62,596 nucleotides of DNA, filler included, from 9 parts of 9 records of this genome joined end to end with filler, not necessarily neighbours in it, one strand, 5' to 3'; shown: positions 3,654 through 62,101, numbered from the whole stretch's first letter. Numbers and translations: made by a program. The notes: generated from the sequence alone by a model not told the origin.

Positions 3654-5936
3654 TTAAAACGGAAAACCAATGCTAAGATGAAAACGCGTTTCATGGTCTT
3701 TGTTATTATCGCCAACAAGTAGTTGAACAGGACCGAGCAGAGAATCGTATTTCAAACCAAAATTAAAGCCCCAAATATAATCTGAAATGTGCTTGTCGGT
3801 AATGTCGGTAAAAAGATCTTCATTGTCATCAGCAATATTGGCCACATTAACCAGGCCCGATAAATACAAACCAGAAGTTAATTCAATATTTATTCCTGAT
3901 TTTATGATTACAAAATTGTTTGTATACATTTCACCAACATTATAACCCGCAAGATTTTTATAGTGCAAACGACAGGTTCCGAATTGAGAACCTCCGAGCA
4001 CAAAAACGTTAGAGCCCGGATTATCGCTGGTTAATCCGGCACTTGCTCCAAAATTATAAGTAACTCTTCGGGCAAAAGTTTTATACCAGTTGTGTTCTAC
4101 TAATAGTGTTGCATAAGGTTCATCACTTTCATCAATAAAATATTCGGTTGTCGAATTATATGGTACTTCCAAATCGCTATTTACTTTTAATGAATGCGAA
4201 AAATCAACATTAAATTGTATCCCTTTTTTAGGAAAATATAAATCGTCGGTAGTATTTACTTTGTAAAACAAGTTATACCCCCAGTCGTTCGATTTATAAC
4301 GCTCGAAATCTGCTTCGGCATAAATGGCCCTCAAATCGGAACGCGGCGTTATGCGATTATTTTTGTAGAATGCATTTCCGCCAATTTGATGATTTAAGCC
4401 CAATAAATACCGCAAACCATAACCGGCTTCGAAATAGTTCTGCTTATAATTTCCCAAACGATTTCCGGCATCGTAAAAAGGCAATTTGTAGCTGTAAGTC
4501 CGCATATATAGTTCATCAGACAAGCGCTGTTTTTTCCCCACAAATTTGTTTAACGAAACCTCCAGTCCCGGATTTTCTGCAATATTTACCGAGACTAACA
4601 TACGTGTGGCAGGAGCAATAATATTTCGTAAAGTAAAATTGGTAACAATGCCTACTCCCAAATCGTCGTCGTACGATGGAGCCAGTTTAAACATTGCCTG
4701 CGGATTTTCTTTTACATTAAAAACCAGCGTGTACCCTTCTTTCTCGTTGTTCTTTTGTAATTCGTAAGTTAATTTAGCAAAAAGGCGGGTTCCGTACATA
4801 AATTCAATGGCCTCTTCAATATCAGCATATCTTAATGAGTCGCCCTTTTGTAAGCCCGATTTTGACAACGCATACTTTTTATCGAGATATTGTAAACCTT
4901 CAACATCAATATCTGTAACTAATATCTTATCGGGTTTATTGTACTTTTTTACCGGTTTACACGAAAGATTATATTTTTCGACAAGTGCCTTAATTTCGTC
5001 AATTTGGTTGCGTGCAGCATCTTCTCCAAGTTGTTGAATAATTTCGCCTTTCGTAAAATCGCTTGCTCCATATTTCCCCATATCGGGAACAATTAAAATA
5101 TCGCACTTTTTATTTTGTTCGCGGGCATCAACAATGCCACCTAAAACCGTTGCACGAGAAAGAATATCGGCGAAAGAAGTTATATCTGCAGCGGTTACAT
5201 TTTCCTGAAATCCTACATAAACTCCAATAATTATATCGGCTCCCATATCAATGGCTTCCTGCACCGGAAAATTTCGGGCAACTCCTCCATCAACCAACAA
5301 CATAGAATCCATTTGCACCGGTGAAAAAACGGTTGGAATAGACATACTTGCCCGAATTGATTTAACGATATCGCCAGATTGGTGTTCAACAGCTTTTCCT
5401 GAAACCAAATCAACCGACATACAATGATATGGGATTGGCAACTTGTTAAAATCTTCGTGCGAAGTAAGAGGCCAGAATAGTTCAGAGAAATAAGCTTCAA
5501 GATGCTGGCCTTCAATTAAACCTGCCGGTAGATTAATTTTATTATCGCGGACAGGGATTTCGAAAAGATATTTATTTGATTCTCTTTTCTCATCCATTGC
5601 CACTTTGCGCAGCTGAACATCGTCGGTAAGTAATTGGTCCCAGTTGGCATTTCGGTTAATTTCGGTTAATTCATCAACCGAATAACCGGCAGCATACAAA
5701 CTACCCACAATACTTCCCATACTGGTTCCGGTAATAATATCGGGGCGAATTCCGGCTTCTTCCAAAACTTTTATTACGCCAATGTGTGCCAGGCCTTTTG
5801 CTCCTCCTCCACTTAAAACAAGGCCAATTTTGATTTTTTTGTTTTCTGTGGGTTTTTCCCGGGCAGATACAATAGAAAAAGAATACGATACAAAAAAAAC
5901 AAAAAGGTACCTTAAAAATAGTGGCAGTCTTTCCAT
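3654..5936 (-). CDS. Patatin-like phospholipase with POTRA and C-terminal beta-barrel (PlpD-like, type Vd)
   Basis: LSGGGAKG, GTSMG nucleophile elbow, DGG; POTRA-like middle region; C-terminal ...SIGFPF barrel signature. Confidence 0.88.
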   Translation of the reverse strand: MERLPLFLRYLFVFFVSYSFSIVSAREKPTENKKIKIGLVLSGGGAKGLAHIGVIKVLEEAGIRPDIITGTSMGSIVGSLYAAGYSVDELTEINRNANWDQLLTDDVQLRKVAMDEKRESNKYLFEIPVRDNKINLPAGLIEGQHLEAYFSELFWPLTSHEDFNKLPIPYHCMSVDLVSGKAVEHQSGDIVKSIRASMSIPTVFSPVQMDSMLLVDGGVARNFPVQEAIDMGADIIIGVYVGFQENVTAADITSFADILSRATVLGGIVDAREQNKKCDILIVPDMGKYGASDFTKGEIIQQLGEDAARNQIDEIKALVEKYNLSCKPVKKYNKPDKILVTDIDVEGLQYLDKKYALSKSGLQKGDSLRYADIEEAIEFMYGTRLFAKLTYELQKNNEKEGYTLVFNVKENPQAMFKLAPSYDDDLGVGIVTNFTLRNIIAPATRMLVSVNIAENPGLEVSLNKFVGKKQRLSDELYMRTYSYKLPFYDAGNRLGNYKQNYFEAGYGLRYLLGLNHQIGGNAFYKNNRITPRSDLRAIYAEADFERYKSNDWGYNLFYKVNTTDDLYFPKKGIQFNVDFSHSLKVNSDLEVPYNSTTEYFIDESDEPYATLLVEHNWYKTFARRVTYNFGASAGLTSDNPGSNVFVLGGSQFGTCRLHYKNLAGYNVGEMYTNNFVIIKSGINIELTSGLYLSGLVNVANIADDNEDLFTDITDKHISDYIWGFNFGLKYDSLLGPVQLLVGDNNKDHETRFHLSIGFPF

Positions 5937-7946: not shown

Positions 7947-8046
7947 NNNNNNNNNNNNNNNNNNNNNNNNNNNNNNNNNNNNNNNNNNNNTTAATTAATT
8001 AANNNNNNNNNNNNNNNNNNNNNNNNNNNNNNNNNNNNNNNNNNNN
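7947..8046. other. Artificial contig linker
   Basis: N-run + TTAATTAATTAA (stops in all six frames) + N-run, 100 nt. Confidence 0.97.
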
Positions 8047-8101: not shown

Positions 8102-8174
8102 AGGGGAGTAGCTCAATTGGGAGAGCACCGGTCTCCAAAACCGGGGGTTGCGGGTTCGATCCCTGTCTCCCCTG
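8102..8174 (+). tRNA. tRNA-Trp(CCA)
   Basis: Cloverleaf: acceptor AGGGGAG/CTCCCCT, D-arm TAGCTCAATTGG, anticodon arm CCGGT-CTCCAAA-ACCGG, T-loop GTTCGAT; canonical position upstream of secE; 3' CCA not encoded. Confidence 0.95.
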
Positions 8175-8213
8175 CATTAATAAAGATGTTGGATATTATA
8201 GGAGCATTAAAAA

Positions 8214-14221: not shown

Positions 14222-14321
14222 NNNNNNNNNNNNNNNNNNNNNNNNNNNNNNNNNNNNNNNNNNNNTTAATTAATTAANNNNNNNNNNNNNNNNNNNNNNN
14301 NNNNNNNNNNNNNNNNNNNNN
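14222..14321. other. Artificial contig linker
   Basis: N-run + TTAATTAATTAA + N-run. Confidence 0.97.
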
Positions 14322-14355
14322 CAGGTGGTCCCTGGTTCGAGCCCAGGTGGGACCA
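14322..14355 (+). tRNA. 3' half of a tRNA (truncated by contig start; anticodon not visible)
   Basis: CAGGTGGTC-CCTGG-TTCGAGC-CCAGG-TGGGACC-A gives the T-arm and acceptor 3' strand. From memory it resembles Bacteroidota tRNA-Ile2/Met(CAT), but identity cannot be read. Confidence 0.8.
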
Positions 14356-14377
14356 CAAGGTTAAAATCCTGAATATC

Positions 14378-14408
14378 AAGCACTTGAATACCAATCAAGT
14401 GCTTTTTT
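14378..14408 (+). terminator. Intrinsic terminator after tRNA
   Basis: AAGCACTTGA-ataccaa-TCAAGTGCTT followed by a T-run. Confidence 0.75.
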
Positions 14409-14789
14409 CATTTTCTACCTTTTACTAAAATTTGCCTAAAAAACGGAAAAGTGGGTCAATTTAGGGTCATTATTATGGCATTGACCTGGTAATATATCTT
14501 TTCGTAATAATGAAGCTTCAATTAGTATTGAACTAAGAAGAAACTCAGGAACTATAGCCAAATCTATCTTATTCATTTCCCGCAAACCAACAAGCAGCAA
14601 AGCTTCTATGGTAAGAAAAAATGGGAACACCTCTGTGATGTTGTACTTCGCTTTGAAGATGGGGTTGTTAGTGTAGAGAAGAATCGGTTTGGGAAGGTTG
14701 GGGAGTATACGATATAGATTATATCGTTCTGGTTTTTATAAAGTGCCGTAATTAAATATCTTTATATGTCAAGCAAAAGATAATAAATT

Positions 14790-15248
14790 ATGTATAAGTT
14801 TTTTGTTCTTGCATTTATATGTCTGTTATCAGCTATTCTTCTCTTTAGAAGATACAATAACGGAATGGGAGCACCATTAGGCTCTTTTCGAAAAAAGATA
14901 TTATATATTTTAGCACTAATATTTTTCGTTGCTTTTATTATTCTTCTGAACAAAGGATATTATTATTCAGATATTCAGCATCATAAACAGTTAATCAGTG
15001 AACTTCAAATAGCTCAATCAGAATTAATTGATATATATAGTTCAAATAACCAAATATCCAATGATGAACTTATTGTTAAAAGAAAAGAAATTACGGAATT
15101 AGCAAATCGAGGAATAAAGGATTCTATTGATATGGATACTCTTTTGCAAATAAGTGAATTCATTACCAGATATTATGTGTTGGAAGATGAGATGAATCAA
15201 AGAAAAGACTCTTTGAGTGTAGTATTACAAAAAAAATTATTGATATAG
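14790..15248 (+). CDS. Hypothetical membrane protein (2 N-terminal TM helices plus helical domain)
   Basis: 152-aa ORF, two hydrophobic segments then a charged helical region; convergent with the pAgo operon. Confidence 0.6.
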   Translation: MYKFFVLAFICLLSAILLFRRYNNGMGAPLGSFRKKILYILALIFFVAFIILLNKGYYYSDIQHHKQLISELQIAQSELIDIYSSNNQISNDELIVKRKEITELANRGIKDSIDMDTLLQISEFITRYYVLEDEMNQRKDSLSVVLQKKLLI

Positions 15249-15386
15249 GGAAAATAACTACGCAGTTAAATGAAAACAATTATAAAGAGTGGGATACTTA
15301 TATAAATATAATTACAAGTATACTTAGTGCCTTTATTGCCTTTGTTATCGCTTTTACTTTTAAAAATAGACTTTTAGGATGATTAT

Positions 15387-16511
15387 TTAAATACCTAAAT
15401 TCTTATTGATCTCTGAAATGGTATCTTTTTCCCAGGTTGAAAAATTTGTATGATTATTTCTTGAAATATCCCATGCCTGATTTAAATACTGAGCAATAGT
15501 TTTTATTTCTGCTAACTCAGAGTTATACATGTTTAGGTCAATATCTTGACAAAAACCAAATATTTCGACTACTAATTTTTCTAACAAGTCATCTGAAAAA
15601 ATAATATCATAAGTAGGTATCTTTGGGTAATTTATTAACTGTTCAAATGAATTCCAAGCACTTAGAATGCTTTCAGATTCATCGTCGTTACCAATTAGCT
15701 TTAACATTTTAATTATTGCTCGTGTCCTAGCTTCGTCTGCTGGATGAGATTTGTAATAATTGTATACCTGAGCCTTGCTATGGCTTATTGTGGTTAACTT
15801 CATGTTCGTCCATGCAAAAGCAGATCCAGTTAAATAAGTAGCAATTAAATCACATACAAACTCTTCATACCAGGAATCCGTCCATAAATTCAAGGTAGTT
15901 TCCAGCCTGTCATAATCACCGTCTCTGTTCTCATCTAAAGCAACACTCATTTCAATGGTAAAATGTTCTTCTATTTCTTGAAGAAATCGACTAGTCAAAG
16001 CACCATAATATTGCTCAAAAATCAGATGTCCAATTTCATGATACAAGTCTGGTAGATTGAGTAAACTATCCTCTTCCCAAAATGGAACTGCAATAATATT
16101 TTCATAGGGAACAGCCCAGTAATAATTGTCAGAATTGCTGATTGTTGATATCAATGGAGGGCTTGATAATAGGTTTGAATCTTCATAAATTTTTTCTACA
16201 ACCACTTTAAAGAAATGGTCTCCACATCCATAGTTATTAATAGGTTGAATTCTATATAATTCTAAATAACCTAAATCTTGATTAAATTTGCTGTAGTTTG
16301 ATAGGTTGTTTGCTAGAAAGAAGTTAATTTCCAAATCACCAGAAGAGATGACGTTAGATACTTTTGTCTCCAGTTCCTTTAATGATTCCATTGTCTCCAT
16401 AACGAAATCATCTTTAATATCATCATGATGATCTCCATTGTCAATTCTGACAATCATTTTCTGTATTCTTGTTAACAGGTCGGTATATAATGCTCTGGTA
16501 AAATTTATCAT
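15387..16511 (-). CDS. Putative zinc metallopeptidase (gluzincin/M48-like motifs), last gene of the pAgo operon
   Basis: LYHEIGH (HEXXH, 16026-16040), downstream WYEEFVCD (E..xD third-ligand motif) and SHPADEAR (HP...R); ATGA overlap with the upstream gene. Confidence 0.72.
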   Translation of the reverse strand: MINFTRALYTDLLTRIQKMIVRIDNGDHHDDIKDDFVMETMESLKELETKVSNVISSGDLEINFFLANNLSNYSKFNQDLGYLELYRIQPINNYGCGDHFFKVVVEKIYEDSNLLSSPPLISTISNSDNYYWAVPYENIIAVPFWEEDSLLNLPDLYHEIGHLIFEQYYGALTSRFLQEIEEHFTIEMSVALDENRDGDYDRLETTLNLWTDSWYEEFVCDLIATYLTGSAFAWTNMKLTTISHSKAQVYNYYKSHPADEARTRAIIKMLKLIGNDDESESILSAWNSFEQLINYPKIPTYDIIFSDDLLEKLVVEIFGFCQDIDLNMYNSELAEIKTIAQYLNQAWDISRNNHTNFSTWEKDTISEINKNLGI

Positions 16512-16951
16512 TCTGAAATATTTCGCATTTTTCTAAACAAGTATGACCTTTCATTATCAAGAACACCGATTATCGTATCAAGCGACTTAAACTGAACTTT
16601 TAATAATGCCTTGTTTTGTTTTAAGTATTCAAGAAGATTTTTTAATTCTTGTTTTAGTTCTGGATTCTTACTTATCTGAGTTGTATATGCCTTGTTTTCT
16701 GCTAACATCTTAATATCTGCATTTGACTTTCCTTCTTCAATTAATTGTATTATGCCTTCGATAAACTCAATTAGTTTGTCTTTTGAGCTCAGATAATCAT
16801 TTTCTCCAATTTTTAATTTAGGATATTTTGTGGTTGAATCCTCTTCTTGTAAAAGAGAGTGTTTTTTTACTGTAATTGATGCATTATTGATATCATCAGT
16901 TAACTTCGATATTCGATTGTATCTTTTTGATATGTAACCCAGTTCACTCAT
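16508..16951 (-). CDS. Hypothetical alpha-helical protein (147 aa) in the pAgo operon
   Basis: ATG at 16951 lies 7 nt after the Ago stop; its stop overlaps the next start (ATGA 16508-16511); no recognisable motif. Confidence 0.7.
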   Translation of the reverse strand: MSELGYISKRYNRISKLTDDINNASITVKKHSLLQEEDSTTKYPKLKIGENDYLSSKDKLIEFIEGIIQLIEEGKSNADIKMLAENKAYTTQISKNPELKQELKNLLEYLKQNKALLKVQFKSLDTIIGVLDNERSYLFRKMRNISE

Positions 16952-16958
16952 GATTATT

Positions 16959-19348
16959 TTATTTATTTTCAACGCTTGTAACTTCATCAACTTGTTCTAA
17001 TGCTATTTCAGAATTTTGGTGAGCAAAAGAACGAATTAGAGTATCCACAATTTTTAGTGTAACAGGAAGGGAATTAGGTCTATCTGGCGCAGAGAAAGCA
17101 AGATTTGATTGATGAAAAATATCCTCAAGTACTTTAATGAAATCAGCATCTCCATAGGTTTGAGTTATATGAAGTGGGTTTGATGATCCTGGTATTGAAT
17201 ATGGAAAACCCGTATTAAATAGGAATGCTTCTTTATCGTTTAGTAACTTGTATTTTCCAGCACTTACATTTTTATACTTAGAATAATCATTGGTTATTCG
17301 GGCAGCCCGAACAGAGAACACGGATTGTTTGTTGACATCAACTACAGCTTTATTCAGATTTGAATTATTTATTATTCCATCAGATGCCAGTTCCTGTATA
17401 ACTTCATCAAGGGCTTTATCTTCTTCCCCGAAACTCCTGCCATCCCTTAATATTACTATTCCATTCGGGTCTTTTGCATATAAAGGGATATGTCTTTTCA
17501 AATTTTTAAGCAGAACCTTTTTAATGGTTCCAGAACTAATTTTTTCATTGCGAAATGTTCCGGTTTTTCTCGGAACATCGGAATAAGTAAATACTATATG
17601 TTCACCATTTTTATAAAAGAAACAGAAACCAGCATAATAATCGTGGGCATCTATCCCTATATAAATGTCATAGTTTAAGTTATCTGATAAACTATAAGGC
17701 CATTTATAATTTACAATCAGTAATTCGAAGAATAAATAATTTAAATATGAGCTAAATACCCTTTCATCTTTTCTCCTGACCTTATATTTTACACTTCCAT
17801 TATTTTCAATTACAGGTTTTAAAAACCTTTGTAATTGAGTAGCACTGGCACATTGAAACCGTAGTTTAGGAAAGAATTTTTTCTTAACACAGTCATGTAT
17901 TCCTTTTAGCACACTGCTTAATTCAATATTGTGATCTGGCAGAATTAGTATTGCACCTCCTTCATTAACCTCATATTTCTGAATACTTTTTTCAATTTCT
18001 TTGAACTGTTTATAGGCACTGAACTCAGTAATATCGTTATATGGAATTAGGATAAAATCTTTTAGCTGAGGTGCAAGTTGTTGAATTGGCTGAAGTAAAT
18101 AATGCCTTACACTTTTGGCAAAATCAATGGTTAGCGATTCAGGGTAAAACAAATATTGTGGCTGGAATGGTCTTTTATCTAAAATGCCACAATTGTATAA
18201 CATCTGCTTTCTGAGTTTCGGGAAGTTATTTAGGTTAGAACCATTTTTTGATTGCCCCGATGGGTTAAGGATTTTGTTCGAAGCATATTTCAATTTTGGA
18301 ATGAAAAATTTTGGCAATGCTTCATTTAATGGTTTATTATCAATATTCAATTTAGTACCATTAAATGTTAGGTTGGAAAAGTATTTCTTTTGAAACTGTG
18401 AAAGATATTGAAACCTTTCCGAAGGGTCATTAATAGATTTTCCATGTATTCCTGCATGACCTGCATCTTCAGCACTATGTATCAGCTTTGCTAAACAAGA
18501 TGCTCCATTAAATATCTTGGTTTGGTGGGGATAAGTATAGAGTAATGCCTTACAATCTTGTTCAATAGGAGAAATTATTTTTCCATATTTCTTAATCTCC
18601 TGATTTTTTATGTAGTCCAGCACAATATGAAATTCCTTGAATCATCAGAAAAGGATTGCTCACTAATAGGTTTTCCAAACCCTTTAACTTCGACTATATA
18701 CCAATCATTACCATTCTGATAGAGCGCACGTTGACCATTGTAAACACTATTTATTATTTGTTGATTTGCTCCATTAATTCTTTCATTAAGAAATTGTTTA
18801 TCAGCATATTTATAAGCTAAATCCAGTATAATATAAAACTCCCCACTATTGGATGTTATTAATTTATAATTGAATCCGGGAAAAATATCGGTTTCAGTTG
18901 GTTGAGCTTGGAATAAAGGAGAACGTTTATGGAAGCTTGTATTACTAAATTTCCATAAATCAGGTGTTTGGGTCAATTGGCTTCTGATTGAAAAGTCCAG
19001 AAAACTTCTTGCTAAATCAAAGGTTGATTTATTTAAATCTTTAAAATCAAGTGTCCCGGTGATATCTGTTTCATGAATTTTCACATTAGAAGGAACTAGT
19101 CTGACTTCTTTATTTGTAACTTGTTTTGAAGCATCAATAGCAATATACTTTTTACCTTTCTGATAGAAAGTTGAAACGGGACCTTTAGTATCCCTTGCCA
19201 ATGACATTAACAAAAGATTCCAATTCTTATTGTTTAGTTTAGGGTCACTTGAATACTCATCTAAATCAACATGAACCAGACGATATTCCATATTTAACTC
19301 AGATAAATTTCTAAGCTTGTACCAATTGAGTATATTTTGCTTCATCAT
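16959..19348 (-). CDS. Long prokaryotic Argonaute (N-L1-PAZ-L2-MID-PIWI), about 796 aa when rejoined; frameshift in PAZ between 18608 and 18641
   Basis: PIWI motifs YIGIDAH, RNEKIS, IVILRDGR, PGSSNPL, SLPVTLKIVD (DEDD tetrad); MID HDCVKKK...FQC...KWPY. The N-terminal ORF 18608..19348 (NWYKLRNLSELNMEYRL...GFNYKL...ILDLAYKY) continues into VLDYIK after a 1-nt shift. Confidence 0.9.
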
Positions 19349-20321
19349 ACAAGAATTTATTCATCAGTAAATGTTCACACAACCTGTTAAACTTGCAAAA
19401 ATGACAAGTACTGGGTTTATCTGTCATTGGGAAATCATCGACATTCAGTTCTTCGAACTTTTTTCCTTCCGTTAATAGAATTTCATCACCGCTGTTCAAG
19501 TAGATGTAATCTACTGTTTTGCCAATAACTTCTTTATTAAAAGGATGATATTTAGTTTCTCCGTTCCATAGGTTAACTTCAAACATTGAAATATCTTCTG
19601 CTCTTATTTGAGTAGCCCTGTTCTCCCTAACTTTTGTCCGATTTTCATCTAATATTGTTATACCAATAATTGCCAGTTGTCTGGAGTAATCAGTTAAAGC
19701 ACTTTGAGAGACTTTCCAGTCTATTACTACAGGTTTATTATTGATATAACATAGCAAGTCAATTTGTGGGGATACCCTTATCCCATCAAAATTAAATGCT
19801 TTACCCTGAACATTTGGTGCCAGAAAGGAAGCTTGCCTTAAAAAATCGAGCAAGTTTATATTCTCACTGACAATAAAGATATCTGGGATACTTAGAATAA
19901 CATTTTCAATGTTGGAATAAACTTGTTCTATGTCATCCTCTGAATATTTCTGACCACTTTCATGTATTTCAAGAATACAATATGCATCTCCTGCCTTTGT
20001 TTTACTTACCCCTTTGTCCCTATATGTTTGGCTTTGCGAAAAGATAAACTGTTCTTTTGCCATTTTTACTGCCTCTTGTGCAAAATAGCTAAAATCCAAC
20101 TTCTGTTTATTCGATATAGCAGGAACAATGAGTTTCTCCATAATTTTATCAATTACAGAGCCTTGCCACATAAATAAGTTTTGAGAACTTTTAAGCTCAA
20201 AGACTTTACGCCGAAATGGATTGGTAAAATGATGGGAAGGTGCAATTTGGGCAAAGTAATATTGCCTGCTACACCTTCTTAGCATCATTAATGCTGAATA
20301 TGACCATCCATTTTTTGCCAT
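19311..20321 (-). CDS. Cas4/AddB-like PD-(D/E)XK nuclease with a 4-Cys Fe-S staple
   Basis: WSYSALMMLRRCSRQYYF (Cys1), PQIDLL (motif II), VVIDWK (motif III), YSRQL, C-terminal TCHFCKFNRLC (CxxCxxxxxC); overlaps the Ago start by 38 nt. Confidence 0.88.
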   Translation of the reverse strand: MAKNGWSYSALMMLRRCSRQYYFAQIAPSHHFTNPFRRKVFELKSSQNLFMWQGSVIDKIMEKLIVPAISNKQKLDFSYFAQEAVKMAKEQFIFSQSQTYRDKGVSKTKAGDAYCILEIHESGQKYSEDDIEQVYSNIENVILSIPDIFIVSENINLLDFLRQASFLAPNVQGKAFNFDGIRVSPQIDLLCYINNKPVVIDWKVSQSALTDYSRQLAIIGITILDENRTKVRENRATQIRAEDISMFEVNLWNGETKYHPFNKEVIGKTVDYIYLNSGDEILLTEGKKFEELNVDDFPMTDKPSTCHFCKFNRLCEHLLMNKFLYDEAKYTQLVQA

Positions 20322-20326
20322 GTGAC

Positions 20327-20884
20327 TTATTCGTTATATAATTCTCCTAATCTTGTTAAGTATTTATTAAGAGCTTTATCATTTCTGAACAATCCATTTG
20401 CCCTTGAACTAGGCTGTCCACCTCCATATTTAAAGGATCTTTCCTGATTTTGTTTTCGGAAAGAAGGCTGAACACCCGATAACTGCAATTTTGAGTTGTT
20501 CACTTCTATCATCAGTGTTTCAAACGTTTTCCGAATTGCTTTTTCGCTTTGCCCAAATCCTATTTGCAATTTGAGTAACAACTTCTTAAGTCCATGTATA
20601 GGGATACTGTTCGGGAAGATATCATCATGTTTAATCTCCTCGATAACTCCAACAGTCAATCCGGATATTGCACTTAACTCCTTATCTTCTATGCCATTCT
20701 CAGCAGATGTTTTGCTAATCAATTCTCCCAAAGAGTTTGATTCAATAGTATCGAATAATTTCTCTACTAGCCTATCTCTTGCTGGGATACCCATACTAAT
20801 TGAAGGTGCAGCAGAAAAAACGATATCTGATTCAACATCCTGAATGTTTGAATTAAACAACGATTTACTCTTTTTAAGTAAAAA
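20327..20884 (-). CDS. XRE/Cro-like HTH-containing protein (5'-truncated)
   Basis: Frame is open to the contig end. LGELISKTSAENGIEDKELSAISGLTVGVIEEIK resembles an XRE HTH. Stop lies 5 nt before the nuclease start. Confidence 0.55.
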   Translation of the reverse strand, partial: FLLKKSKSLFNSNIQDVESDIVFSAAPSISMGIPARDRLVEKLFDTIESNSLGELISKTSAENGIEDKELSAISGLTVGVIEEIKHDDIFPNSIPIHGLKKLLLKLQIGFGQSEKAIRKTFETLMIEVNNSKLQLSGVQPSFRKQNQERSFKYGGGQPSSRANGLFRNDKALNKYLTRLGELYNE

Positions 20885-20984
20885 NNNNNNNNNNNNNNNN
20901 NNNNNNNNNNNNNNNNNNNNNNNNNNNNTTAATTAATTAANNNNNNNNNNNNNNNNNNNNNNNNNNNNNNNNNNNNNNNNNNNN
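20885..20984. other. Artificial contig linker
   Basis: N-run + TTAATTAATTAA + N-run. Confidence 0.97.
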
Positions 20985-23900
20985 TTTGTAAAGTTGATTT
21001 GAACGGTAACATCATCTTCTACATCTTCAGTAAGTTCGAGTGTGAACTCAACGTTGCTACCTTCTGTAGCCGAAGCATCAGAGATTGTTACAGCAGCATT
21101 GTCGTTATCAGTAATTGTACCTAATCCACTGTCGTCGGAGAATATGATATCTCTTCCAATGAAATTATCTTCAGATAAATCAATAGTAAATGTTTCGTCT
21201 TCTTCTAAAATATCATCACCATTAACGGTAATTGAAATCGTTTGAGATTCTCCGCTTGTTCCGCTAAAGGTTAATGTTCCTGAATCGGAAACGAAATCTG
21301 TATCTTCTGTTGTTACATGGTTTGTGGTGTAAGCAACGGTAAACGAACCATCGGTGTTTTTACCGCTTTGAGTAACAATAAATTCATACAGAACAGTTGC
21401 AGTACCATCTAATTCAGTTTTACTTATATTATCAATAGATAATGTTGCCTGATCGTTATCCTGGATAAGCCCCACAGCCTGAGTTGTTGCTCCACCTCCT
21501 GATAATGTAATATTTTGGCTATTGGCAACTAAGCTGCCAACTTCACCAATTAACTGTTCAGTTGGTTCAACTGAGTCATCGTCGTTAATGGTTACATCAA
21601 TAGTATGTGGTCCATCGTTCCCGGCTCCAAAGTCAAGCGTTGTGGCACCAATTGCAGTGTAATCTTCTAATGCTCCCGCCAATGCAGAGTCATCAGAAGT
21701 GTTGAAACTTACTGTAACTGCATTTTGTATTACATGGTCAGAACTAACCGTAAACGTTCCTGTTCCGTTGCCTTCGTTTACATCGAATCCTGCAATTGAA
21801 ATAGTTGCATCATCATCGTCGTTTATTATTCCGGTAGCCGTACCGGTTCCAATAGTTATATTTTGATTATTATTATCGACAATTGTAATACTGGCAGTAA
21901 ACGATTCCTGAGGCTCGGTAACGTTATTGCCAACAACGTCTACAGGTATATTCACACTAAAGTTTCCAGCCAGAATGGTATATTCCTGTGCAAGCTGTTC
22001 GTTAAAATCTTGATTATCGAGGGCAGTGCCTTCAGCAGTTGTAAAGCTAATTATAACATCCTCCTGAGCTTCAACATCCATCGAAGCTACGAAGTTATGG
22101 CTTATGGTTCCATCGGTTTCTTCAACAGTAAAACCTGCAAGATTAATTTGAGTAACCGGATCATCATCAACAATACTTCCAATACCTGTATCTTTAGTAA
22201 ATGAACTTGAGCCAGTACAAGTAATTGAGGTTAGGTCAACTGAGAATGTTTCAGTAACAGGTTCCGAAATAATATCGTCAACAATTGTTATCGAAATAGT
22301 TTTTTCAGTGCCAGAAATCGAACCTGCTTCAAAAGTTACCACGTCAGTTTTTGCAGTGTAGTCACTTGGTGCTTCTGCAATGTCGTTAACGAATCCATCA
22401 GAGGTTGTGTAATTAACTGTAAGTTCATCCTGAATATTTCCGGTTAATGTTACTGTGAATACAGCAACACCCGCAGCAACATCTTCAGTAACTAATGTAT
22501 CGTTTATAGCAATACTTGCATGTTCGTCATCGGTAATTGTTGCAATTGCAGCAACAGTGGCTTCTCCATTGCTTAATGTTACAGCTTGCGATGCTGCTTG
22601 AAGATTACTTAATACACCATTGAAGGTTTCAGATGGCTCAACCCAATTGTCGTTAATAATGGTCACCTCAACGTACTGGATATTATCATTAGTACTTCCA
22701 AAATTAAGAGTAGTTGTTCCAACTGCTGTATAATCATCGCCGGCTGTTGCTTCGTCAGCAATATCAGCTGTTGCAAAGTCAACACTAAATTCATTTTGAA
22801 CATCCCTGCTTAGCGTAATCGTAAATCTTACCGTAACAGTTCCAACTTCCGATTCATCAGTTATGAATCCATCAATAGACAAGATAGCTGGATCATTATC
22901 TTCTATTGTATAAATTGCATCTGCATCGACAACAGATACCTGCTGTGCATTTGCATTTGTAAGCGTAATAGCTCCATTAAATATTTCAGTAGGTTCAGTA
23001 ATTACATCTCCCAGAACATTAACCGGAATATCTACTTCCTGGCTTCCGGCAGGAATAGTAACAATAGTATTCGACTGAGCTGTGTAATCATTTCCATCAA
23101 GTGCAGTACTATCAGAAGTTGAGAAATTAACCGTTACTTCTTCTTCGGCTGCAATATTGGTTGTTAGTTTATAATCTATTGTTTGTGTAGCATCGGTCTC
23201 TGTAATTGTACTGTCGTGCAAGGTTATTTCCATTTCATCGTCGTCGATAATTGTAGCCGTAGCTTCATCGCCGTTGCTTGTAAATACAACCTGCTGTCCG
23301 TTAAGGGTATTCAATGAAATCCTTCCGTTAAATGTTTCGATTGTTTCAGCAATATCATCACCTGCAATGGTCGTAGCCGATACATTCACATTATCAGTTG
23401 AATTTGCTGGTAAGGTAACACCAACTCCTGATTGGGCTGTGAAGTCATCAGTTGAAACTGCAGTAGGTGTTGCATCTTCCTGCGATGAGAAGACTAATGT
23501 AATTTCGTGTTGAGATGCGATATCTCGACTTACATAGAAATTCTGAGTTTGAGCAATGTCGGTTTCCGCAACGGTGAATGCATTTAAGGTAAGATGAACA
23601 GTATCTTCAACGTTAATAGTACCCAAACCTTGAGCATCGAAAATAGAAACACCACTTTGGCCATTATTATCTAATCCAGATAAATTAATATGGTAGGTTT
23701 CAGTTGCTTCTGCCACATTGTCGTTCAGAATTGAAACATCTATTTCTTTAGTTGTACCATCGGTTGAACCAGCTTCGAAAGTAATTGCATCGTCAACAGC
23801 TGTGTAATCGCTTGTTGCTACAGCTGATACATTTTCCGATTGGTAATTGAACGAAATTGCATCTTCGATATTACCGCTAAGTGTTACTGTAAATGTTGCT

Positions 23901-26788
23901 GTAACCGGCTCGGTTCCTTCTGTAATCTCAACATCATCAATTGCCAAAGTGGCATTGTCATTATCATTGATTGTACCGGTTGCCTGCATTGAAGCTCCGC
24001 CTCCGTTAAGAGTTACATTCTGGCTAAGAGCATCAGTCAGATTATTTATTATTCCGTAAAGAGTTTCGGTAGCTTCAGCAATGTTGCCATCTAAAATTGG
24101 GATAGTAACATTTTGAATTAAATCATTTTCTCCACCAAAGGTTAATGTCTCAGTAGTGTTTGTGTAATCTGTTGCAGCCAAAGCGGTATTATCCGAAGTT
24201 GCAAAATCAACTGTAAATTCGCCCTGAACGGCATTGTTTAATGTAACAGTGAAATCAGCACTTGCGGTACCTTCAGTGACTATGAAATCGTCAATAGTAA
24301 GAACAGCACTATCATTGTTGGTAATTGTACCTACTGCTAAACTATCGGCGAAAGTAATTTGGTTTAATATTTCAACTGGTAAACTACTACACTGAATATT
24401 ACTTAATGAAACTTTGAAGAATTCATCGAGTTCAACTTTTTCATCACCATTTATAGTAATCGAAATGGTTTTAGTTACATCATTCTCTCCATCAAAGCTT
24501 AAAGTGCCAGATGCTGCAACAAAGTCACCATCGGCAGTAGTCGCAGTACTGTCTAAAACGGTATAATCAACCGTTATAGGCGTAGTCGCTTCAACAGGTC
24601 TGCTAAGTGTAACATCAAATACCAATTGTTTTGAACCAGAATCACCTTCTTCTATAGGAGCATCAGCAATACCAAATGTCGAAGAATCGTCGTTGGTGAT
24701 AATTGCAGTTGCCGAATTATTAGTAACGGTTACTACCTGATTTACTCCGGTTGTTGTGGCAGGTGTAAGGTTCATTGTGAACACCTCATTCTTTTCAACC
24801 ATTTCATCACCATTCACCAAAACCGTAATTGTTTGTTCTTCTTCTGGAGTACCTACAAAGTTTACAGTACCACTAACACCCGTGTAGTCGGTAGGTGAAT
24901 ATGCCGAACTGTTACTGGAATAAAATATCATTGAGTAGCCACCAACTACCTCAATGTTTGATTGTGTTATTGTAAATGTAAAGTTTGTTGTTCCCGAGTT
25001 TGTTTCATCTAAAGTAAGATCAGCAATTGCTACGGTTGCTTCATCATTGTCTTCGTTAACAATAGTAATGTCGTCCGGATTAAGACCATCGTAGTTCGAA
25101 TCTGTAGTTCCGGTTGTATTTATTGTATTTTCTACAGTGAAAGTAATATCGCCGTCAACTATGCCATCGTCGACACCTGTTACTGTAACGGTTTGTGGAG
25201 TGTCCCAGTTTTCGTGCGTAAATGTTAATGCCGGTTGGTCAACAGTACCTTCGCCAATATCTTTACTTGTAACATCAATAACAACAACGAAATTTTCAGT
25301 ATCGGTAGCCGGTTTGCTGGTTAAAACAACGGTGTACTGTGCTGTTGCAGCATTTTCGGTTACGGTTAAATTGGTTGGAGTAACTACAAAACCTGAAGCA
25401 TCATTGTCGATATTTGTAACTGAAACGGTTTCTGCAAATAATCCACTGTATTTAGGATCAATTGAAGTGGCATTACTAATATTAATATGGTAATTTACAT
25501 CTCCATCATCAATTTCATCATCTAAACCTCGCAGAGTTACAGTTTGAACATCATCCCAGTTAGCCGAGGTGAAAGTAAGTGTTGTTGCACTTGTAATTTC
25601 CCCCTCTGTTAAGTCTCCAGAATCAATTGAAAGATCAAAACTTACATCGTTTACAGGTTCTGTATTCAACTTAATTGTGAAGGTTGTTGTTCCAAGATTT
25701 TCTGTGGTATTTCCTGCAACACTTGCAACCGTTATTCCTGCATCGTCGTTATCAACATTGGTTGCTTTTACAATTGCATCATGGGCATTTTCGTAACCGG
25801 AAAGATCGTGGGTTGCTGCCTGATTAATTGCTAAAGTAACATTGTACGAAATATCGTCGTCGTCAACATCGTCGTTAACTCCTGTTATTCGAATGGTGTG
25901 ACCGGTATCCCAGTTGGAGTCATTAAAGGTGAGCTGAGAACCAATAGAAATTGTTCCTTCTCCTGTATCGCCACTACTAACATCAATAACTACTGTTCCG
26001 GTAGGAGCCGAGCCCAGCGTTACAGTAATTTCTTCAAAAGTTTGACCTTCGGTAGTTGTTACGGTATCGGTGCTAACAAGAATTGCACCGTCTTGTGCAT
26101 CAATGGTAATATCAAAACTACAGGTTTCTGTATTTTCGTTTTCATCTTCCGCAATATAAGTAACAGTAGTGGTACCAACGTTAAAGTCATCGGTACTTAA
26201 TTCGTGAATTCCGGAAGCCTGGGCTGTTTGAATTGTTGCCCCTGAATATGAATATGTCAGTTTTTCTACCGTGCAATTGTCATTGTAAGTTGGTGCTGTA
26301 ATACCTGTAACAGTTTTAAAAGTAGCTCCTGAAGATGCAACTATTTCAATAATGTCAGCCGGGCAACTAATTCTTGGATCTTGATCGTCACCAACAACAA
26401 CATTAAATTCCACTGTTCCTGTATTAGGAGTAGTAGCATGGTCGGCTACTGACCAGGTAACGGTAGTTGTTCCTTTTTGGAAGACTTGCCCCGCAAGTGT
26501 TGTATTTGGTGCAATAACAGCAGTTGAAGCTGGCCCGCTTAAAGTATAAGTAATTGTCGGACTATCGTCACAATTATCGGTTGGATTCCATGCGTCTCCA
26601 CTTAGGGTATAAGTACAAAGATCTGTATCAACAACCACATTTCGATCGGTAAGATCGTCGAGGGTAGGAGCCTGTTCGTCAACAACTGTAACTGTTGTTG
26701 AGCATTCAGCATCTAAACCAGCCTCGTCGGCAACTTTTAAGTAGATAGTGTTATCTCCAATCTCAGTACAATCATAGGTTAATGTTGC
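20985..26788 (-). CDS. Giant repetitive surface protein/adhesin fragment (HYR domains plus tandem Calx-beta repeats), open at both ends
   Basis: More than 1900 codons with no stop across the contig. HYR-like (GTTTVTY...CSFDITI) units are followed by many Calx-beta units (V.F.T.D.TA....DY....GTL.F....I.I.I..D...E..ETF...L...A.GTI.DND). Confidence 0.9.
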
Positions 26789-26790: not shown

Positions 26791-26890
26791 NNNNNNNNNN
26801 NNNNNNNNNNNNNNNNNNNNNNNNNNNNNNNNNNTTAATTAATTAANNNNNNNNNNNNNNNNNNNNNNNNNNNNNNNNNNNNNNNNNNNN
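26791..26890. other. Artificial contig linker
   Basis: N-run + TTAATTAATTAA + N-run. Confidence 0.97.
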
Positions 26891-32112: not shown

Positions 32113-32212
32113 NNNNNNNNNNNNNNNNNNNNNNNNNNNNNNNNNNNNNNNNNNNNTTAATTAATTAANNNNNNNNNNNNNNNNNNNNNNNNNNNNNNNN
32201 NNNNNNNNNNNN
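32113..32212. other. Artificial contig linker
   Basis: N-run + TTAATTAATTAA + N-run. Confidence 0.97.
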
Positions 32213-38409: not shown

Positions 38410-38509
38410 NNNNNNNNNNNNNNNNNNNNNNNNNNNNNNNNNNNNNNNNNNNNTTAATTAATTAANNNNNNNNNNNNNNNNNNNNNNNNNNNNNNNNNNN
38501 NNNNNNNNN
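38410..38509. other. Artificial contig linker
   Basis: N-run + TTAATTAATTAA + N-run. Confidence 0.97.
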
Positions 38510-47393: not shown

Positions 47394-47493
47394 NNNNNNN
47401 NNNNNNNNNNNNNNNNNNNNNNNNNNNNNNNNNNNNNTTAATTAATTAANNNNNNNNNNNNNNNNNNNNNNNNNNNNNNNNNNNNNNNNNNNN
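47394..47493. other. Artificial contig linker
   Basis: N-run + TTAATTAATTAA + N-run. Confidence 0.97.
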
Positions 47494-55768: not shown

Positions 55769-55868
55769 NNNNNNNNNNNNNNNNNNNNNNNNNNNNNNNN
55801 NNNNNNNNNNNNTTAATTAATTAANNNNNNNNNNNNNNNNNNNNNNNNNNNNNNNNNNNNNNNNNNNN
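55769..55868. other. Artificial contig linker
   Basis: N-run + TTAATTAATTAA + N-run. Confidence 0.97.
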
Positions 55869-57602: not shown

Positions 57603-57618
57603 GTCGGCTATTGCAGCA

Positions 57619-61179: not shown

Positions 61180-61197
61180 GGAACGAAAGGCAGTTTC

Positions 61198-62079: not shown

Positions 62080-62101
62080 GGCAATAGCTGTCGCCGGACG
62101 G

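What the first reader, a model, noticed from the sequence alone, without database searches (positions are those of the whole stretch)
15387..20884. Candidate multi-gene Argonaute defence system: HTH + Cas4-like nuclease + long pAgo + helical protein + HEXXH metallopeptidase
Seen: five co-oriented genes with operon-like junctions (5-nt gap, 38-nt overlap, 7-nt gap, ATGA overlap) on an AT-rich contig that begins in a tRNA. Established: pAgos are guide-dependent defence proteins, and long-A pAgos paired with Cas4-family nucleases are known (e.g. the cyanobacterial cAgo/ACE1 type). Inference: I do not recognise the two translationally coupled downstream genes (147-aa helical protein and 374-aa gluzincin-like peptidase), together with the upstream HTH gene, as standard pAgo partners. 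They may add a protease-based effector or regulatory arm. One model is that nuclease-made guides load the pAgo, and target recognition or infection then activates the peptidase. The operon is truncated upstream, so more genes may belong to it.
Basis: partly seen in the sequence, partly recalled or inferred. Interest (0 to 1): 0.9.

Follow-up and report, generated by a model that had tools for sequence, protein, structure and literature searches.

The report
Argonaute operon with protease switch genes
This is a bacterial RNA-cutting Argonaute defence operon that nearly always carries three unstudied partner genes (a DNA-binding protein, a zinc protease and a small protein predicted to plug that protease), which probably form a protease-driven on-switch.

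Summary
The five co-oriented genes are real and lie at the stated junctions. They are a contig-truncated copy of the PnyAgo/MbpAgo-type operon of DNA-guided, RNA-cleaving long-A Argonautes (Lisitskaya 2022). Related loci show six genes: ECF sigma factor, XRE-fold protein, Cas4-like Fe-S nuclease, DEDD pAgo, 147-aa helical protein and a 374-aa HExxH...ExxxD gluzincin. The sigma gene lies beyond the contig end.

The pAgo "split" is a one-base difference at 18630. An independent assembly of the probable source run has an extra base there, giving one 796-aa frame.

The two downstream genes are not chance neighbours:
- 59 of 59 pAgo-selected metagenome loci with enough downstream DNA carry the gluzincin.
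- 43 of 59 gluzincin-selected genome loci carry nuclease and pAgo in order. Six have sigma, HTH, helical protein and gluzincin without pAgo.

A complex model supports helical protein-gluzincin binding (0.73 against 0.01 for the best control), with the conserved Ser-Asp/Glu N-terminus near the active site.

My best reading (about 0.5) is a CapH/CapP-like proteolytic transcription switch, not an effector arm. None of my six literature searches found these partner genes described. Earlier agents of this scan saw the same pair in the sister PliAgo group.

The parts
14322..14356 (+). 3' fragment of a tRNA gene (T-arm and acceptor strand) at the contig start, followed by a terminator-like hairpin at 14378-14404. 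It marks the island border and is not part of the operon.
   Evidence: Read directly. ARAGORN and Rfam do not call the fragment.
15387..16511 (-). Last gene of the operon: a 374-aa gluzincin-like protein. It has an N-terminal three-helix bundle (residues 1-112) and a zincin domain with H158-E159-x-x-H162 and E217-x-x-x-D221. C220 and H256-P257 are also invariant.
   Evidence: The ORF is. Conserved columns across 37 sequences are (E159, H162, E217, C220, D221, H256 and P257 invariant; H158 in at least 90%). The AlphaFold model has pLDDT 91.9. Among the rows listed, only M48 chains cover the catalytic domain: BepA Z 8.2-8.3, 164-169 aligned, rmsd 4.9-5.1; 3c37 Z 7.3; ZMPSTE24 Z 7.0-7.1. There is no Pfam, NCBIfam or PADLOC family.
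16508..16951 (-). 147-aa all-helical partner protein, translationally coupled to the gluzincin (ATGA overlap). Its N-terminus Met-Ser-Asp/Glu is conserved. It is predicted to bind the gluzincin.
   Evidence: ORF and junctions are, the alignment. Residue 2 is S, G or T in 107 of 110 distinct homologues and residue 3 is D, E or N in 99 of 110.
16959..19348 (-). Long-A pAgo of the PnyAgo/MbpAgo group, with the DEDD tetrad intact. In this record it is split into 18608-19348 (246 aa) and 16959-18623 (554 aa) by a one-base difference at 18630.
   Evidence: PADLOC pAgo_II matches both pieces. D325, E360, D394 and D527 of the C piece are invariant in 25 sequences. The best solved relatives are 8xih and 9wmd (MbpAgo), E 4e-132.
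19311..20321 (-). 336-aa Cas4-family PD-(D/E)XK nuclease. It has the D188...D201-x-K203 motif and a 1+3 cysteine set (C17, C306, C309, C315) of the kind that binds an Fe-S cluster in Cas4, AddB and ACE proteins.
   Evidence: PADLOC Aga_Cas4-like_Nuc, E 2e-55. Pfam PDDEXK_1, E 3e-7. These residues are conserved in at least 98% of 44 sequences.
20327..20884 (-). XRE-fold helix-turn-helix protein, about 200 aa in relatives. Here its 5' end is cut off by the contig end. It has a five-helix HTH core, then a low-confidence linker holding a conserved aromatic-Arg-Lys/Arg-Gly motif, then a C-terminal helix pair.
   Evidence: The frame is open to the contig end. The model has a core pLDDT of about 95 and a linker pLDDT below 50. 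Foldseek gives probability 1.0 to XRE-type domains (HipB, C.BclI, SinR, DdrO, CapH), but E is 0.06 or worse.

Best explanation
SHOWN. The contig carries the 3' five-sixths of a six-gene operon of the PnyAgo/MbpAgo group of DNA-guided, RNA-cleaving long-A Argonautes. The gene order is ECF sigma factor (off the contig), XRE-fold protein, Cas4-like Fe-S nuclease, DEDD pAgo, 147-aa helical protein, HExxH...ExxxD gluzincin. The last two genes and the XRE-fold gene are near-constant partners of this pAgo family.

INFERRED (about 0.5). The XRE-fold protein, the helical protein and the gluzincin, with the sigma factor, form a proteolytic transcription switch. It would work like CapH/CapP, DdrO/IrrE or ImmR/ImmA but is built from unrelated parts.
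- At rest, the XRE-fold protein holds the operon's conserved GTAACC...TGCAT promoter, or the sigma factor itself, in check.
- At rest, the gluzincin is kept inactive by the helical protein, whose processed Ser-Asp/Glu N-terminus sits in the active-site cleft.
- A signal of invasion, such as single-stranded DNA or nuclease/pAgo products, frees the protease.
- The protease cuts the XRE-fold protein in its disordered linker at or near the conserved aromatic-Arg motif.
- Sigma-driven transcription then raises nuclease and pAgo levels.
- The nuclease supplies small DNA guides and the pAgo slices invader RNA.
For: Identity of the core:
- PADLOC calls pAgo_II and Aga_Cas4-like_Nuc.
- The best solved relative is MbpAgo, 9wmd/8xih, E 4e-132. 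PliAgo 7r8f scores E 4e-30.
- The homologous pAgo in the Pedobacter nyackensis locus L016 has D563, E598, D632 and D765, exactly the residues the paper gives for PnyAgo.
- The DEDD tetrad is invariant, including in the window.

Partnership, starting from the pAgo:
- 80 of 203 metagenome hits were kept.
- 59 of 59 with at least 1,700 nt downstream have the gluzincin, and 53 of those 59 pass the helical-protein HMM.
- 62 of 62 with at least 1,100 nt upstream have the nuclease.

Partnership, starting from the gluzincin:
- 43 of 59 species-genome loci have nuclease, pAgo and gluzincin in order, and 3 more have an adjacent pAgo.
- In an even sample of 401 Bacteroidota genomes, 7 had a match. All 6 that I examined lie in the nuclease-pAgo-helical-gluzincin order.

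Sigma factor:
- All 41 genome loci with the HTH homologue have a sigma-sized ORF directly upstream.
- 4 of 4 tested match Sigma70_r4_2, and 3 of 4 exceed the curated cut-off.
- A GTAACC-N4-6-[GT]CAT element lies within 200 nt upstream of the sigma gene in 65 of 70 loci. That accounts for 69 of the 97 matches in 1.98 Mb.

Switch analogy:
- The HTH model matches XRE domains, including the protease-cleaved repressors DdrO and CapH.
- CapP cleaves CapH between Phe82 and Arg83, and 24 CapH/CapP systems also carry a sigma70-family factor (passages read).
- 52 of 66 distinct group-A HTH proteins have [FYW]-R-[KR] in the last 75 residues, and the window's copy of the motif borders the stretch of its model with pLDDT below 50.
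- 29 of 31 group-B XRE proteins keep R-x-[GS] in the matching linker.

Protease-partner complex:
- Score 0.73, best of 3 controls 0.01.
- The mark was reached by 51 of 78 solved complexes and 2 of 108 mismatched pairs.
- The runs agree in at least 91% of contacts, and the partner's pLDDT is at least 78.
- The interface lists gluzincin residues 57-86 plus 132, 141, 159 (the HExxH Glu) and 255, and helical-protein residues 1-4, 8-46 and 118-143.
- The model supports binding; it does not show it.

N-terminus of the helical protein:
- Residue 2 is S, G or T in 107 of 110 distinct homologues. From general knowledge, these residues allow removal of the initiator Met.

Against an effector role:
- The pAgo is catalytically intact. 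From general knowledge and the passages read, accessory effectors go with inactive pAgos.
Against: - No cleavage, DNA binding or regulation has been measured.
- The gluzincin is not an M78/COG2856 peptidase and has no GAF domain (no Pfam match), so the CapP analogy rests on architecture alone.
- The HTH fold matches have weak E-values (0.06 or worse).
- The aromatic-Arg motif is only moderately conserved: 52 of 66 in group A, and aromatic-Arg in only 12 of 31 in group B.
- Six of 59 gluzincin loci have the sigma-HTH-helical-gluzincin quartet with no pAgo or nuclease. No pAgo of this family was found anywhere in the 3 such genomes searched, and there is no shared cargo in their flanks. A pure regulator with nothing to regulate is odd, which leaves room for an autonomous effector or toxin-antitoxin-like role.
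- That the helical N-terminus contacts the active site is my reading of an interface list, not of listed residue pairs.
- The window itself lacks the sigma gene and the promoter element.
Confidence: 0.5

Rival explanations
1. Effector arm. The gluzincin is a toxic, Lit-like abortive-infection protease held in check by the helical protein. Target RNA recognition by the pAgo, or another infection cue, releases it to cleave a host or phage protein.
For: - The predicted tight protease-partner complex, with the partner's N-terminus listed beside the catalytic Glu, also fits a toxin-inhibitor pair.
- The quartet persists without pAgo in 6 of 59 loci, including a Fibrella pair that has diverged by about 0.6 changes per site each with intact frames. 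This suggests a function of its own.
- Atlas feature search gives leads to Peptidase_U49 (Lit) clusters, but only at 0.77-0.79, below the 0.9 lead threshold.
Against: - The pAgo keeps DEDD and its close relatives slice RNA on their own in vitro. Effector coupling is known for inactive pAgos (passages).
- The set XRE-fold protein, metalloprotease and sigma factor is the published signature of a transcription switch.
- No contact between pAgo and gluzincin was tested.
Confidence: 0.2
2. An autonomous sigma/anti-sigma signalling or addiction cassette. The sigma-HTH-helical-gluzincin quartet is an independent ECF-type signalling or toxin-antitoxin-like unit into which a nuclease-pAgo pair (and sometimes a 136-144-aa ORF) was inserted. 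It stabilises or merely hosts the cargo without sensing invaders.
For: - The content between the HTH and helical genes varies: nothing (L002, L045, L047, L049), a 136-144-aa ORF (L039, L041), that ORF plus nuclease-pAgo (L078), or nuclease-pAgo.
- pAgo-less forms are scattered on the gluzincin tree. Starred branches force at least 3 changes, and parsimony needs 5 (quick tree only).
- The HTH gene sits in the usual anti-sigma position.
Against: - The sister group without a sigma factor keeps XRE, helical protein and gluzincin around nuclease-pAgo. In some searches, 25 of 54 loci with enough upstream DNA lack sigma yet have the rest.
- From the pAgo side the association is 59 of 59. That is hard to explain by passive hosting.
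Confidence: 0.12
3. Maturation or quality-control factor. The gluzincin-helical pair processes or turns over the pAgo or the nuclease, for example by removing a peptide, clearing spent complexes or helping guide loading.
For: There is only the strict co-occurrence with both proteins and the translational coupling downstream of the pAgo.
Against: - According to the passages I read, PnyAgo and three relatives are active when purified from E. coli. Those passages name no partner genes in the expression constructs.
- The quartet exists without pAgo or nuclease.
Confidence: 0.08
4. Chance neighbours in a defence island.
For: None beyond the low GC and the tRNA-adjacent position of the contig.
Against: The same order and spacing recur across Bacteroidota, Chloroflexota, Acidobacteriota and Nitrososphaerota: 59 of 59 and 43 of 59. 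The gap from the end of the pAgo match to the start of the gluzincin match is 377-660 nt in all 67 measured loci.
Confidence: 0.01

Closest known systems
PnyAgo-group operon of DNA-guided RNA-cleaving (D-R) long-A pAgos: PnyAgo, HpeAgo, MbpAgo (Lisitskaya et al. 2022, PMC9360449; MbpAgo structures 9WMD/9WMF/9WMH, PMC13346755)
   Same: - A pAgo of about 796 aa with DEDD, about 40% identical to PnyAgo's locus copy, and E 4e-132 to MbpAgo.
- A preceding PD-(D/E)XK Cas4-like nuclease with overlapping stop and start.
- A sigma70-family factor upstream in relatives.
   Different: - The passages I read name only the sigma factor and the nuclease as partners of this group. The figure is not held and supplements were closed, so unlabelled genes may be drawn there.
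- The XRE-fold protein, the helical protein and the gluzincin are not discussed in those passages, although they are present at PnyAgo's own locus (L016).
- The window copy lacks the sigma gene (contig end) and shows a one-base frame break.
PliAgo-group D-R pAgo operon (PliAgo, RslAgo; PDB 7R8F-7R8K)
   Same: It has the same five-gene core: XRE regulator, Cas4-like nuclease, pAgo, small helical protein, gluzincin. This is seen here in the loci at about 25% identity and was noted by earlier agents of this scan.
   Different: - It has no sigma factor.
- Its XRE protein is short and canonical, at 112-136 aa.
- The window pAgo is much closer to MbpAgo than to PliAgo (E 4e-132 against 4e-30).
CapH/CapP, DdrO/IrrE and ImmR/ImmA: XRE repressor plus metallopeptidase switches on immune operons, DNA-damage regulons and mobile elements (bioRxiv 10.1101/2022.04.27.489752; 10.64898/2026.05.16.725639, abstract only)
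   Same: - An XRE-fold protein with a C-terminal helical part.
- A HExxH metallopeptidase in the same operon as a defence system.
- An occasional sigma70-family factor.
- CapH is cut at Phe-Arg, and this family has a conserved aromatic-Arg in the linker.
   Different: - The peptidase here has no PF06114/M78 match and no GAF domain. Its fold is nearest to M48.
- It has a dedicated helical partner that CapP lacks. CapP autoinhibits with its own cysteine-switch loop.
- The regulator and protease genes sit at opposite ends of the operon.
APACE systems: long-A pAgo plus Argonaute-associated Cas4-family enzymes ACE1/ACE2 (Mol Cell 2025, PMC12094033)
   Same: - The nuclease has the D...DxK motif and 1+3 cysteines.
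- It is co-encoded with an active long-A pAgo.
- ACE1 was shown to cooperate with its pAgo against invading DNA.
   Different: - ACE1 is confined to cyanobacteria and averages 278 aa.
- The window nuclease is 336 aa and gave no sequence match to any solved chain at E up to 1 other than two unrelated ones. I assume, without having checked, that the PDB copy searched holds CtACE1 (9IAB).
- It may belong to the uncharacterised ACE2 clade, but I held no ACE2 sequence to test that.
- The partner pAgo here is of the RNA-cleaving group.
Peptidase family M48 (BepA, HtpX, Ste24/ZMPSTE24)
   Same: - The HExxH motif plus a downstream Glu on a later helix.
- Among the listed rows, the only solved chains covering the catalytic domain are M48: BepA Z 8.2-8.3, 3c37 Z 7.3, ZMPSTE24 Z 7.0-7.1.
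   Different: - There is no Pfam PF01435 match.
- The profile finds no PDB sequence at E up to 10.
- It is cytoplasmic, with no membrane or TPR parts, and has an N-terminal three-helix bundle.
- Z values of this size can also arise from a common helical arrangement.

Membership tests
PnyAgo-group D-R long-A pAgo operon | Full-length long pAgo (N, PAZ, MID and PIWI domains, about 790-800 aa) closer to PnyAgo/MbpAgo than to other groups | tested here: met
   PADLOC pAgo_II covers profile positions 1-221 and 225-761 of 767. MbpAgo scores E 4e-132 against 4e-30 for PliAgo. One 796-codon frame results with the extra base seen in other assemblies.
PnyAgo-group D-R long-A pAgo operon | Canonical DEDD catalytic tetrad | tested here: met
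   D325, E360, D394 and D527 of the C piece are invariant in 25 sequences. They align with D563, E598, D632 and D765 of the P. nyackensis copy.
PnyAgo-group D-R long-A pAgo operon | pAgo preceded by a PD-(D/E)XK nuclease distantly related to Cas4 | tested here: met
   The stop and start overlap by 38 nt.
PnyAgo-group D-R long-A pAgo operon | Sigma70-family factor gene in the operon | not testable with these tools
   The contig ends inside the HTH gene. The gene is present in 41 of 41 related genome loci. By its length and mapped coordinates, Logan's 8,111-nt contig of run X1 should reach about 1.5 kb further upstream, but its letters cannot be fetched.
PnyAgo-group D-R long-A pAgo operon | DNA-guided cleavage of RNA targets | not testable with these tools
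   This is a biochemical property. It is known for PnyAgo, HpeAgo and MbpAgo from the papers.
CapH/CapP-type regulator pair | XRE-family HTH repressor with a C-terminal oligomerisation part | tested here: inconclusive
   Fold matches to XRE domains have probability 1.0 and TM up to 0.83 (CapH NTD), but E is 0.06 or worse. There is no Pfam HTH hit.
CapH/CapP-type regulator pair | M78/COG2856 (PF06114) metallopeptidase with a GAF domain | tested here: not met
   There is no PF06114 or any other Pfam match at E up to 0.1 apart from a sub-threshold PRD hit. The model has an N-terminal helix bundle plus a zincin domain and no GAF domain. It is a functional analogue at most, not a member.
Peptidase family M48 | Sequence match to the M48 profile; HExxH plus a distal Glu ligand | tested here: inconclusive
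   The motifs are present and the fold is nearest to M48 at Z 7.0-8.3. There is no PF01435 match and no PDB sequence match.
Long-B pAgo-nuclease (BPAN) abortive-infection systems | Catalytically inactive long-B pAgo that activates its nuclease | tested here: not met
   The DEDD tetrad is intact. The best relatives are long-A D-R pAgos.
APACE1 (cyanobacterial long-A pAgo plus ACE1) | ACE1-clade nuclease (about 278 aa, cyanobacteria only) | tested here: inconclusive
   The shared motifs are present. The protein is 336 aa, from a Bacteroidota-like contig, and gave no sequence match to a solved ACE1 chain. No phylogeny with ACE1 or ACE2 was possible.

The most novel reading that the evidence does not exclude
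The XRE-fold protein, the helical protein and the gluzincin are a previously unrecognised three-part protease switch, evolved independently of CapH/CapP. A dedicated inhibitor plugs a cytoplasmic M48-like protease with its free N-terminus. An infection signal produced by the operon's own nuclease or pAgo (small DNAs or sliced RNA) releases the protease, and the protease cuts the regulator. Guide production would thus feed back on Argonaute expression. The same chassis can carry other cargo or none.
Probability: 0.3. Interest if true: 0.75.

Novelty: new variant of a known kind. Interest (0 to 1): 0.6.

Why it matters
D-R pAgos (PnyAgo, MbpAgo, PliAgo) are being developed as RNA tools, yet their role in cells is unknown. 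In the papers I read (passages) they were studied as isolated proteins.

Nearly every natural copy comes with the same nuclease, an XRE-fold protein, a small helical protein and a zinc protease. The characterised PnyAgo locus has this set too. This gives a concrete, testable hypothesis for how these Argonautes are controlled and when they are loaded with guides.

If the protease switch is real, it adds a second, unrelated solution to the CapH/CapP problem of turning immune operons on by proteolysis. It also adds a new kind of protease inhibitor.

For this window alone the gain is smaller. It is a truncated copy, and the same accessory pair has already been flagged by this scan in the sister group.

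Tried and rejected
- No whole genome is held for the window.
- The genome-contig scan with the single pAgo piece found no relative. I repeated it with the gluzincin alignment.
- Foldseek against the PDB found nothing at E up to 0.001 for the gluzincin model. The VIA rows are dominated by helix bundles matching residues 1-100.
- The gluzincin profile found 0 PDB sequences at E up to 10.
- The Atlas gave only sub-0.9 leads to Peptidase_U49 and M48, plus an unnamed cluster at 0.91. I treat these as leads only.
- Rfam found nothing on the contig.
- The sigma-70 promoter and terminator scans equal their shuffles.
- The GTAACC...TGCAT element has 0 matches in the window at up to 2 mismatches. This is expected, because the operon's 5' end is missing.
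- Earlier-findings look-ups by place and by sequence returned nothing.
- Runs X2 and X4 cover only about 200 nt each and X3 is a diverged relative. I draw no conclusion on habitat or strain.
- The careful tree search did not finish in time, so only the quick tree is used. The rows left out were gluzincin pieces under 330 aa.
- I rejected the BPAN/long-B assignment because DEDD is intact.
- I rejected chance neighbours on the synteny counts.
- I checked the flanks of five of the six pAgo-less quartets (L041 was not checked) for a shared alternative cargo and found none. They hold TonB receptors, SusD, NAD synthase, a glycosylase, a kinase and two M48 genes.
- The 120 listed hits of the length-limited protein search, all 260-400 aa, include no fused helical-gluzincin or HTH-gluzincin form. 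I did not search longer proteins.

Full report
WHAT IS THERE

The window is a chain of contigs joined by N-spacers. The finding lies on one AT-rich contig, 14322-20884 (GC about 0.31). The contig begins with the 3' part of a tRNA (read) and ends 24 nt upstream of the first start codon of the 'HTH' ORF.

PADLOC profiles identify both pAgo pieces as one pAgo_II (profile positions 1-221 and 225-761 of 767). They identify the upstream gene as an Argonaute-associated Cas4-like nuclease. Pfam gives only PDDEXK_1 for the nuclease. Pfam, NCBIfam and PADLOC give no match above the cut-offs for the other three proteins.

THE pAgo IS ONE GENE

Homologues read straight through the junction. Logan's contig of run X1 has depth 33.8 and 8,111 nt. 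It is possibly from the source sample, so it is independent only as an assembly. It differs from the window at a single place, 18630, where it has A>G plus one extra base. A diverged relative's contig in run X3 shows the same extra base.

Applying that difference gives a single 796-codon frame over 16959-19348, the size of the 792-799-aa homologues. The break is therefore most likely a consensus error or a minority variant of this record, not a decayed gene. Contigs cannot show rare variants, so raw reads are still needed.

By its length and mapped coordinates, the same Logan contig should reach about 1.5 kb beyond the window's contig end on the upstream side.

WHICH ARGONAUTE

I read its passages. 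The paper defines two groups of DNA-guided RNA-cleaving pAgos, each in an operon of constant composition after a Cas4-like PD-(D/E)XK nuclease. The PliAgo group has an HTH regulator and the PnyAgo group has a sigma70-family factor.

- Locus L016 is from Pedobacter nyackensis. Its 793-aa pAgo has D, E, D, D at positions 563, 598, 632 and 765, the residues given for PnyAgo.
- The window's pAgo is about 40% identical to it.
- The window's best solved relatives are 8xih and 9wmd (E 4e-132), far ahead of PliAgo (E 4e-30). 9WMD is MbpAgo.
- The tetrad is invariant in 25 aligned sequences, including the window.

This is therefore a PnyAgo/MbpAgo-group long-A pAgo, not a long-B or inactive one.

The nuclease keeps D188, D201-x-K203 and the cysteines C17, C306, C309 and C315, each conserved in at least 98% of 44 sequences. 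This is the D-DxK plus 1+3 Cys pattern described for ACE1 and ACE2. It has no sequence match to a solved ACE1 chain. Its 336 aa and Bacteroidota-like origin fit the uncharacterised ACE2 clade better, but I could not test that.

THE OPERON HAS SIX GENES

The window's HTH frame is open to the contig end and lacks about 15 residues. In all 41 genome loci with an HTH homologue, a sigma-sized ORF lies directly upstream. Four of four tested match Sigma70_r4_2, and three are above the curated cut-off.

A GTAACC-N4-6-[GT]CAT element lies within 200 nt upstream of the sigma gene in 65 of 70 loci. That accounts for 69 of the 97 matches in 1.98 Mb. It is a likely promoter/operator of the whole unit. It is absent from the window because that end is missing.

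ARE THE DOWNSTREAM GENES PARTNERS? YES

The gluzincin family has 130 hits, all unnamed and without Pfam domains.

Starting from the gluzincin (59 species-genome loci):
- 43 have nuclease, pAgo and gluzincin in order.
- 3 more have an adjacent pAgo, either cut by the contig or without a detectable nuclease.
- 4 are cut at the gluzincin itself.
- 3 are gluzincin fragments.
- 6 have room upstream but no pAgo.

Starting from the pAgo (80 loci kept of 203 metagenome hits):
- 59 of 59 with at least 1,700 nt downstream carry the gluzincin, and 53 of those 59 pass the helical-protein HMM.
- 62 of 62 with at least 1,100 nt upstream carry the nuclease.
- About half belong to the sister group at about 25% identity, which has no sigma factor (29 loci with sigma, 25 without). 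There a canonical 112-136-aa XRE gene precedes the nuclease.

In an even sample of 401 Bacteroidota genomes, 7 matched the gluzincin profile. The 6 I examined all sit in the pAgo operon. The arrangement spans Bacteroidota, Chloroflexota, Acidobacteriota and Nitrososphaerota.

WHAT THE PARTNERS LOOK LIKE

Gluzincin:
- The model has pLDDT 91.9, with a three-helix bundle (residues 1-112) followed by a three-strand sheet and helices.
- E159 and H162 of the H158-E159-x-x-H162 motif (H158 itself in at least 90%), E217-x-x-x-D221, C220 and H256-P257 are invariant in 37 sequences.
- Among the listed rows, only M48 chains cover the catalytic domain: BepA Z 8.2-8.3 (164-169 aligned, rmsd 4.9-5.1), 3c37 Z 7.3, ZMPSTE24 Z 7.0-7.1. 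These values are modest.

XRE-fold protein:
- The core has pLDDT of about 95 and matches XRE domains at Foldseek probability 1.0. The matches include the protease-cleaved repressors DdrO and CapH (TM 0.83 for the CapH N-terminal domain), but E is 0.06 or worse.
- After the core comes a low-confidence linker, then two C-terminal helices.
- The linker carries an aromatic-Arg-Lys/Arg-Gly motif. [FYW]R[KR] occurs in 52 of 66 distinct group-A proteins.
- Group-B XRE proteins keep R-x-[GS] in the same place in 29 of 31.

Helical protein:
- It is poorly conserved apart from its N-terminus. Residue 2 is S, G or T in 107 of 110 distinct homologues, and residue 3 is D, E or N in 99 of 110.

Complex model of the helical protein with the gluzincin:
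- The score is 0.73 and the best of 3 controls is 0.01.
- The mark was reached by 51 of 78 solved complexes and 2 of 108 mismatched pairs.
- The runs agree in at least 91% of contacts, and the partner's pLDDT is at least 78.
- The interface lists bundle helix 57-86 plus residues 132, 141, 159 (the catalytic Glu) and 255, against partner residues 1-4, 8-46 and 118-143.
- I infer that the partner's N-terminus reaches the active site. This is a model and an inference, not a measurement.

HOW IT MOST LIKELY WORKS

CapH/CapP is an XRE repressor plus a metallopeptidase on hundreds of immune operons. CapP cuts CapH between Phe82 and Arg83 when ssDNA appears, and 24 such systems also carry a sigma70-family factor (passages read; abstract of the 2026 preprint).

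The present set has the same logic but different parts. The protease is M48-like, without M78 or GAF. It has a separate inhibitor-like partner instead of CapP's own cysteine-switch loop.

I therefore favour a proteolytic transcription switch that raises nuclease and pAgo expression on a signal of invasion (confidence about 0.5). The nuclease would make DNA guides and the pAgo would slice invader RNA. Those last two steps are inferred from the papers, not shown here.

THE MAIN COUNTER-EVIDENCE

Six loci (L002, L039, L041, L045, L047, L049) have sigma, HTH, helical protein and gluzincin with no pAgo or nuclease.
- No pAgo of this family was found anywhere in the three such genomes searched.
- The flanks I checked, for five of the six loci, share no other cargo.
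- These loci are scattered on the quick gluzincin tree, which needs at least 3 changes. One pair of Fibrella species has kept intact frames while diverging.
- L002 is the closest complete relative of the window's genes (65% identity for the gluzincin).
- A 136-144-aa ORF fills the cargo position in L039 and L041, and it sits next to nuclease-pAgo in L078.

The quartet is thus a self-standing chassis with exchangeable content. That fits an ECF-type signalling cassette. It also leaves room for the effector and toxin-antitoxin-like rivals.

NOVELTY

The core is known. The accessory trio is not mentioned in the passages of the pAgo papers I read. It was not found by searches for pAgo or Argonaute together with peptidase, metalloprotease, HExxH or sigma/anti-sigma. 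Figures and supplements were not visible to me.

Earlier agents of this scan reported the helical-HExxH pair in PliAgo-type operons. New here are:
- the assignment to the PnyAgo group, including PnyAgo's own locus;
- the sixth gene and its promoter element;
- the pAgo-less quartets;
- the supported protease-partner complex with a conserved N-terminus;
- the CapH-like linker motif;
- the evidence that the frame break is a record-level difference.

Noticed in passing
window 1-62596 (spacers at 7947-8046, 14222-14321, 20885-20984, 26791-26890, 32113-32212, 38410-38509, 47394-47493, 55769-55868): The window is nine contigs joined by N44-ttaattaattaa-N44 spacers. GC runs from about 0.29 to 0.45 on the first eight but is about 0.59 on the last (55869-62596). 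The record may mix organisms, for example as a binned assembly.
   Followed up: partly
window 20985-26638 (-), next contig: A 1,901-aa ORF (as listed it runs across the spacer) is made of many similar acidic, Thr/Val-rich repeats and looks like a giant surface adhesin. It is unrelated to the operon because it lies on another contig. I did not search it against any library.
   Followed up: no
L003-L100, about 10-60 nt upstream of the sigma gene start (e.g. L016 about 4925-4950): A conserved GTAACC-N4-6-[GT]CAT(A/T)AT element lies within 200 nt upstream of the sigma gene in 65 of 70 loci. It is sometimes duplicated (L003, L061, L095). It is a candidate sigma-dependent promoter overlapped by an operator.
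   Followed up: partly
L039:9124-9534, L041:9134-9568, L078:1101-1490: A 136-144-aa ORF with no Pfam family occupies the cargo slot between the HTH and helical genes in two pAgo-less loci. In L078 it sits between the HTH gene and the nuclease.
   Followed up: partly
L045:6496-8227: Two Pfam-positive M48 peptidase genes lie directly upstream of the pAgo-less quartet of Fibrella aquatilis. This may be coincidence or a functional link with the M48-like gluzincin.
   Followed up: no
window 14790-15248 (+): A 152-aa ORF with a hydrophobic N-terminal stretch and no family match converges on the end of the operon. It is not conserved with the operon in the relatives examined.
   Followed up: partly
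window 8102-8175 (+), another contig: An intact tRNA-Trp (CCA) starts the contig before this one. It is distinct from the tRNA fragment at 14322.
   Followed up: no
L152 (G263) and L153 (G072): the genome search flagged one in-frame stop inside the gluzincin match in two Bacteroidota genomes. I did not check whether these are broken copies or read-through of the overlapping gene junction.
   Followed up: no
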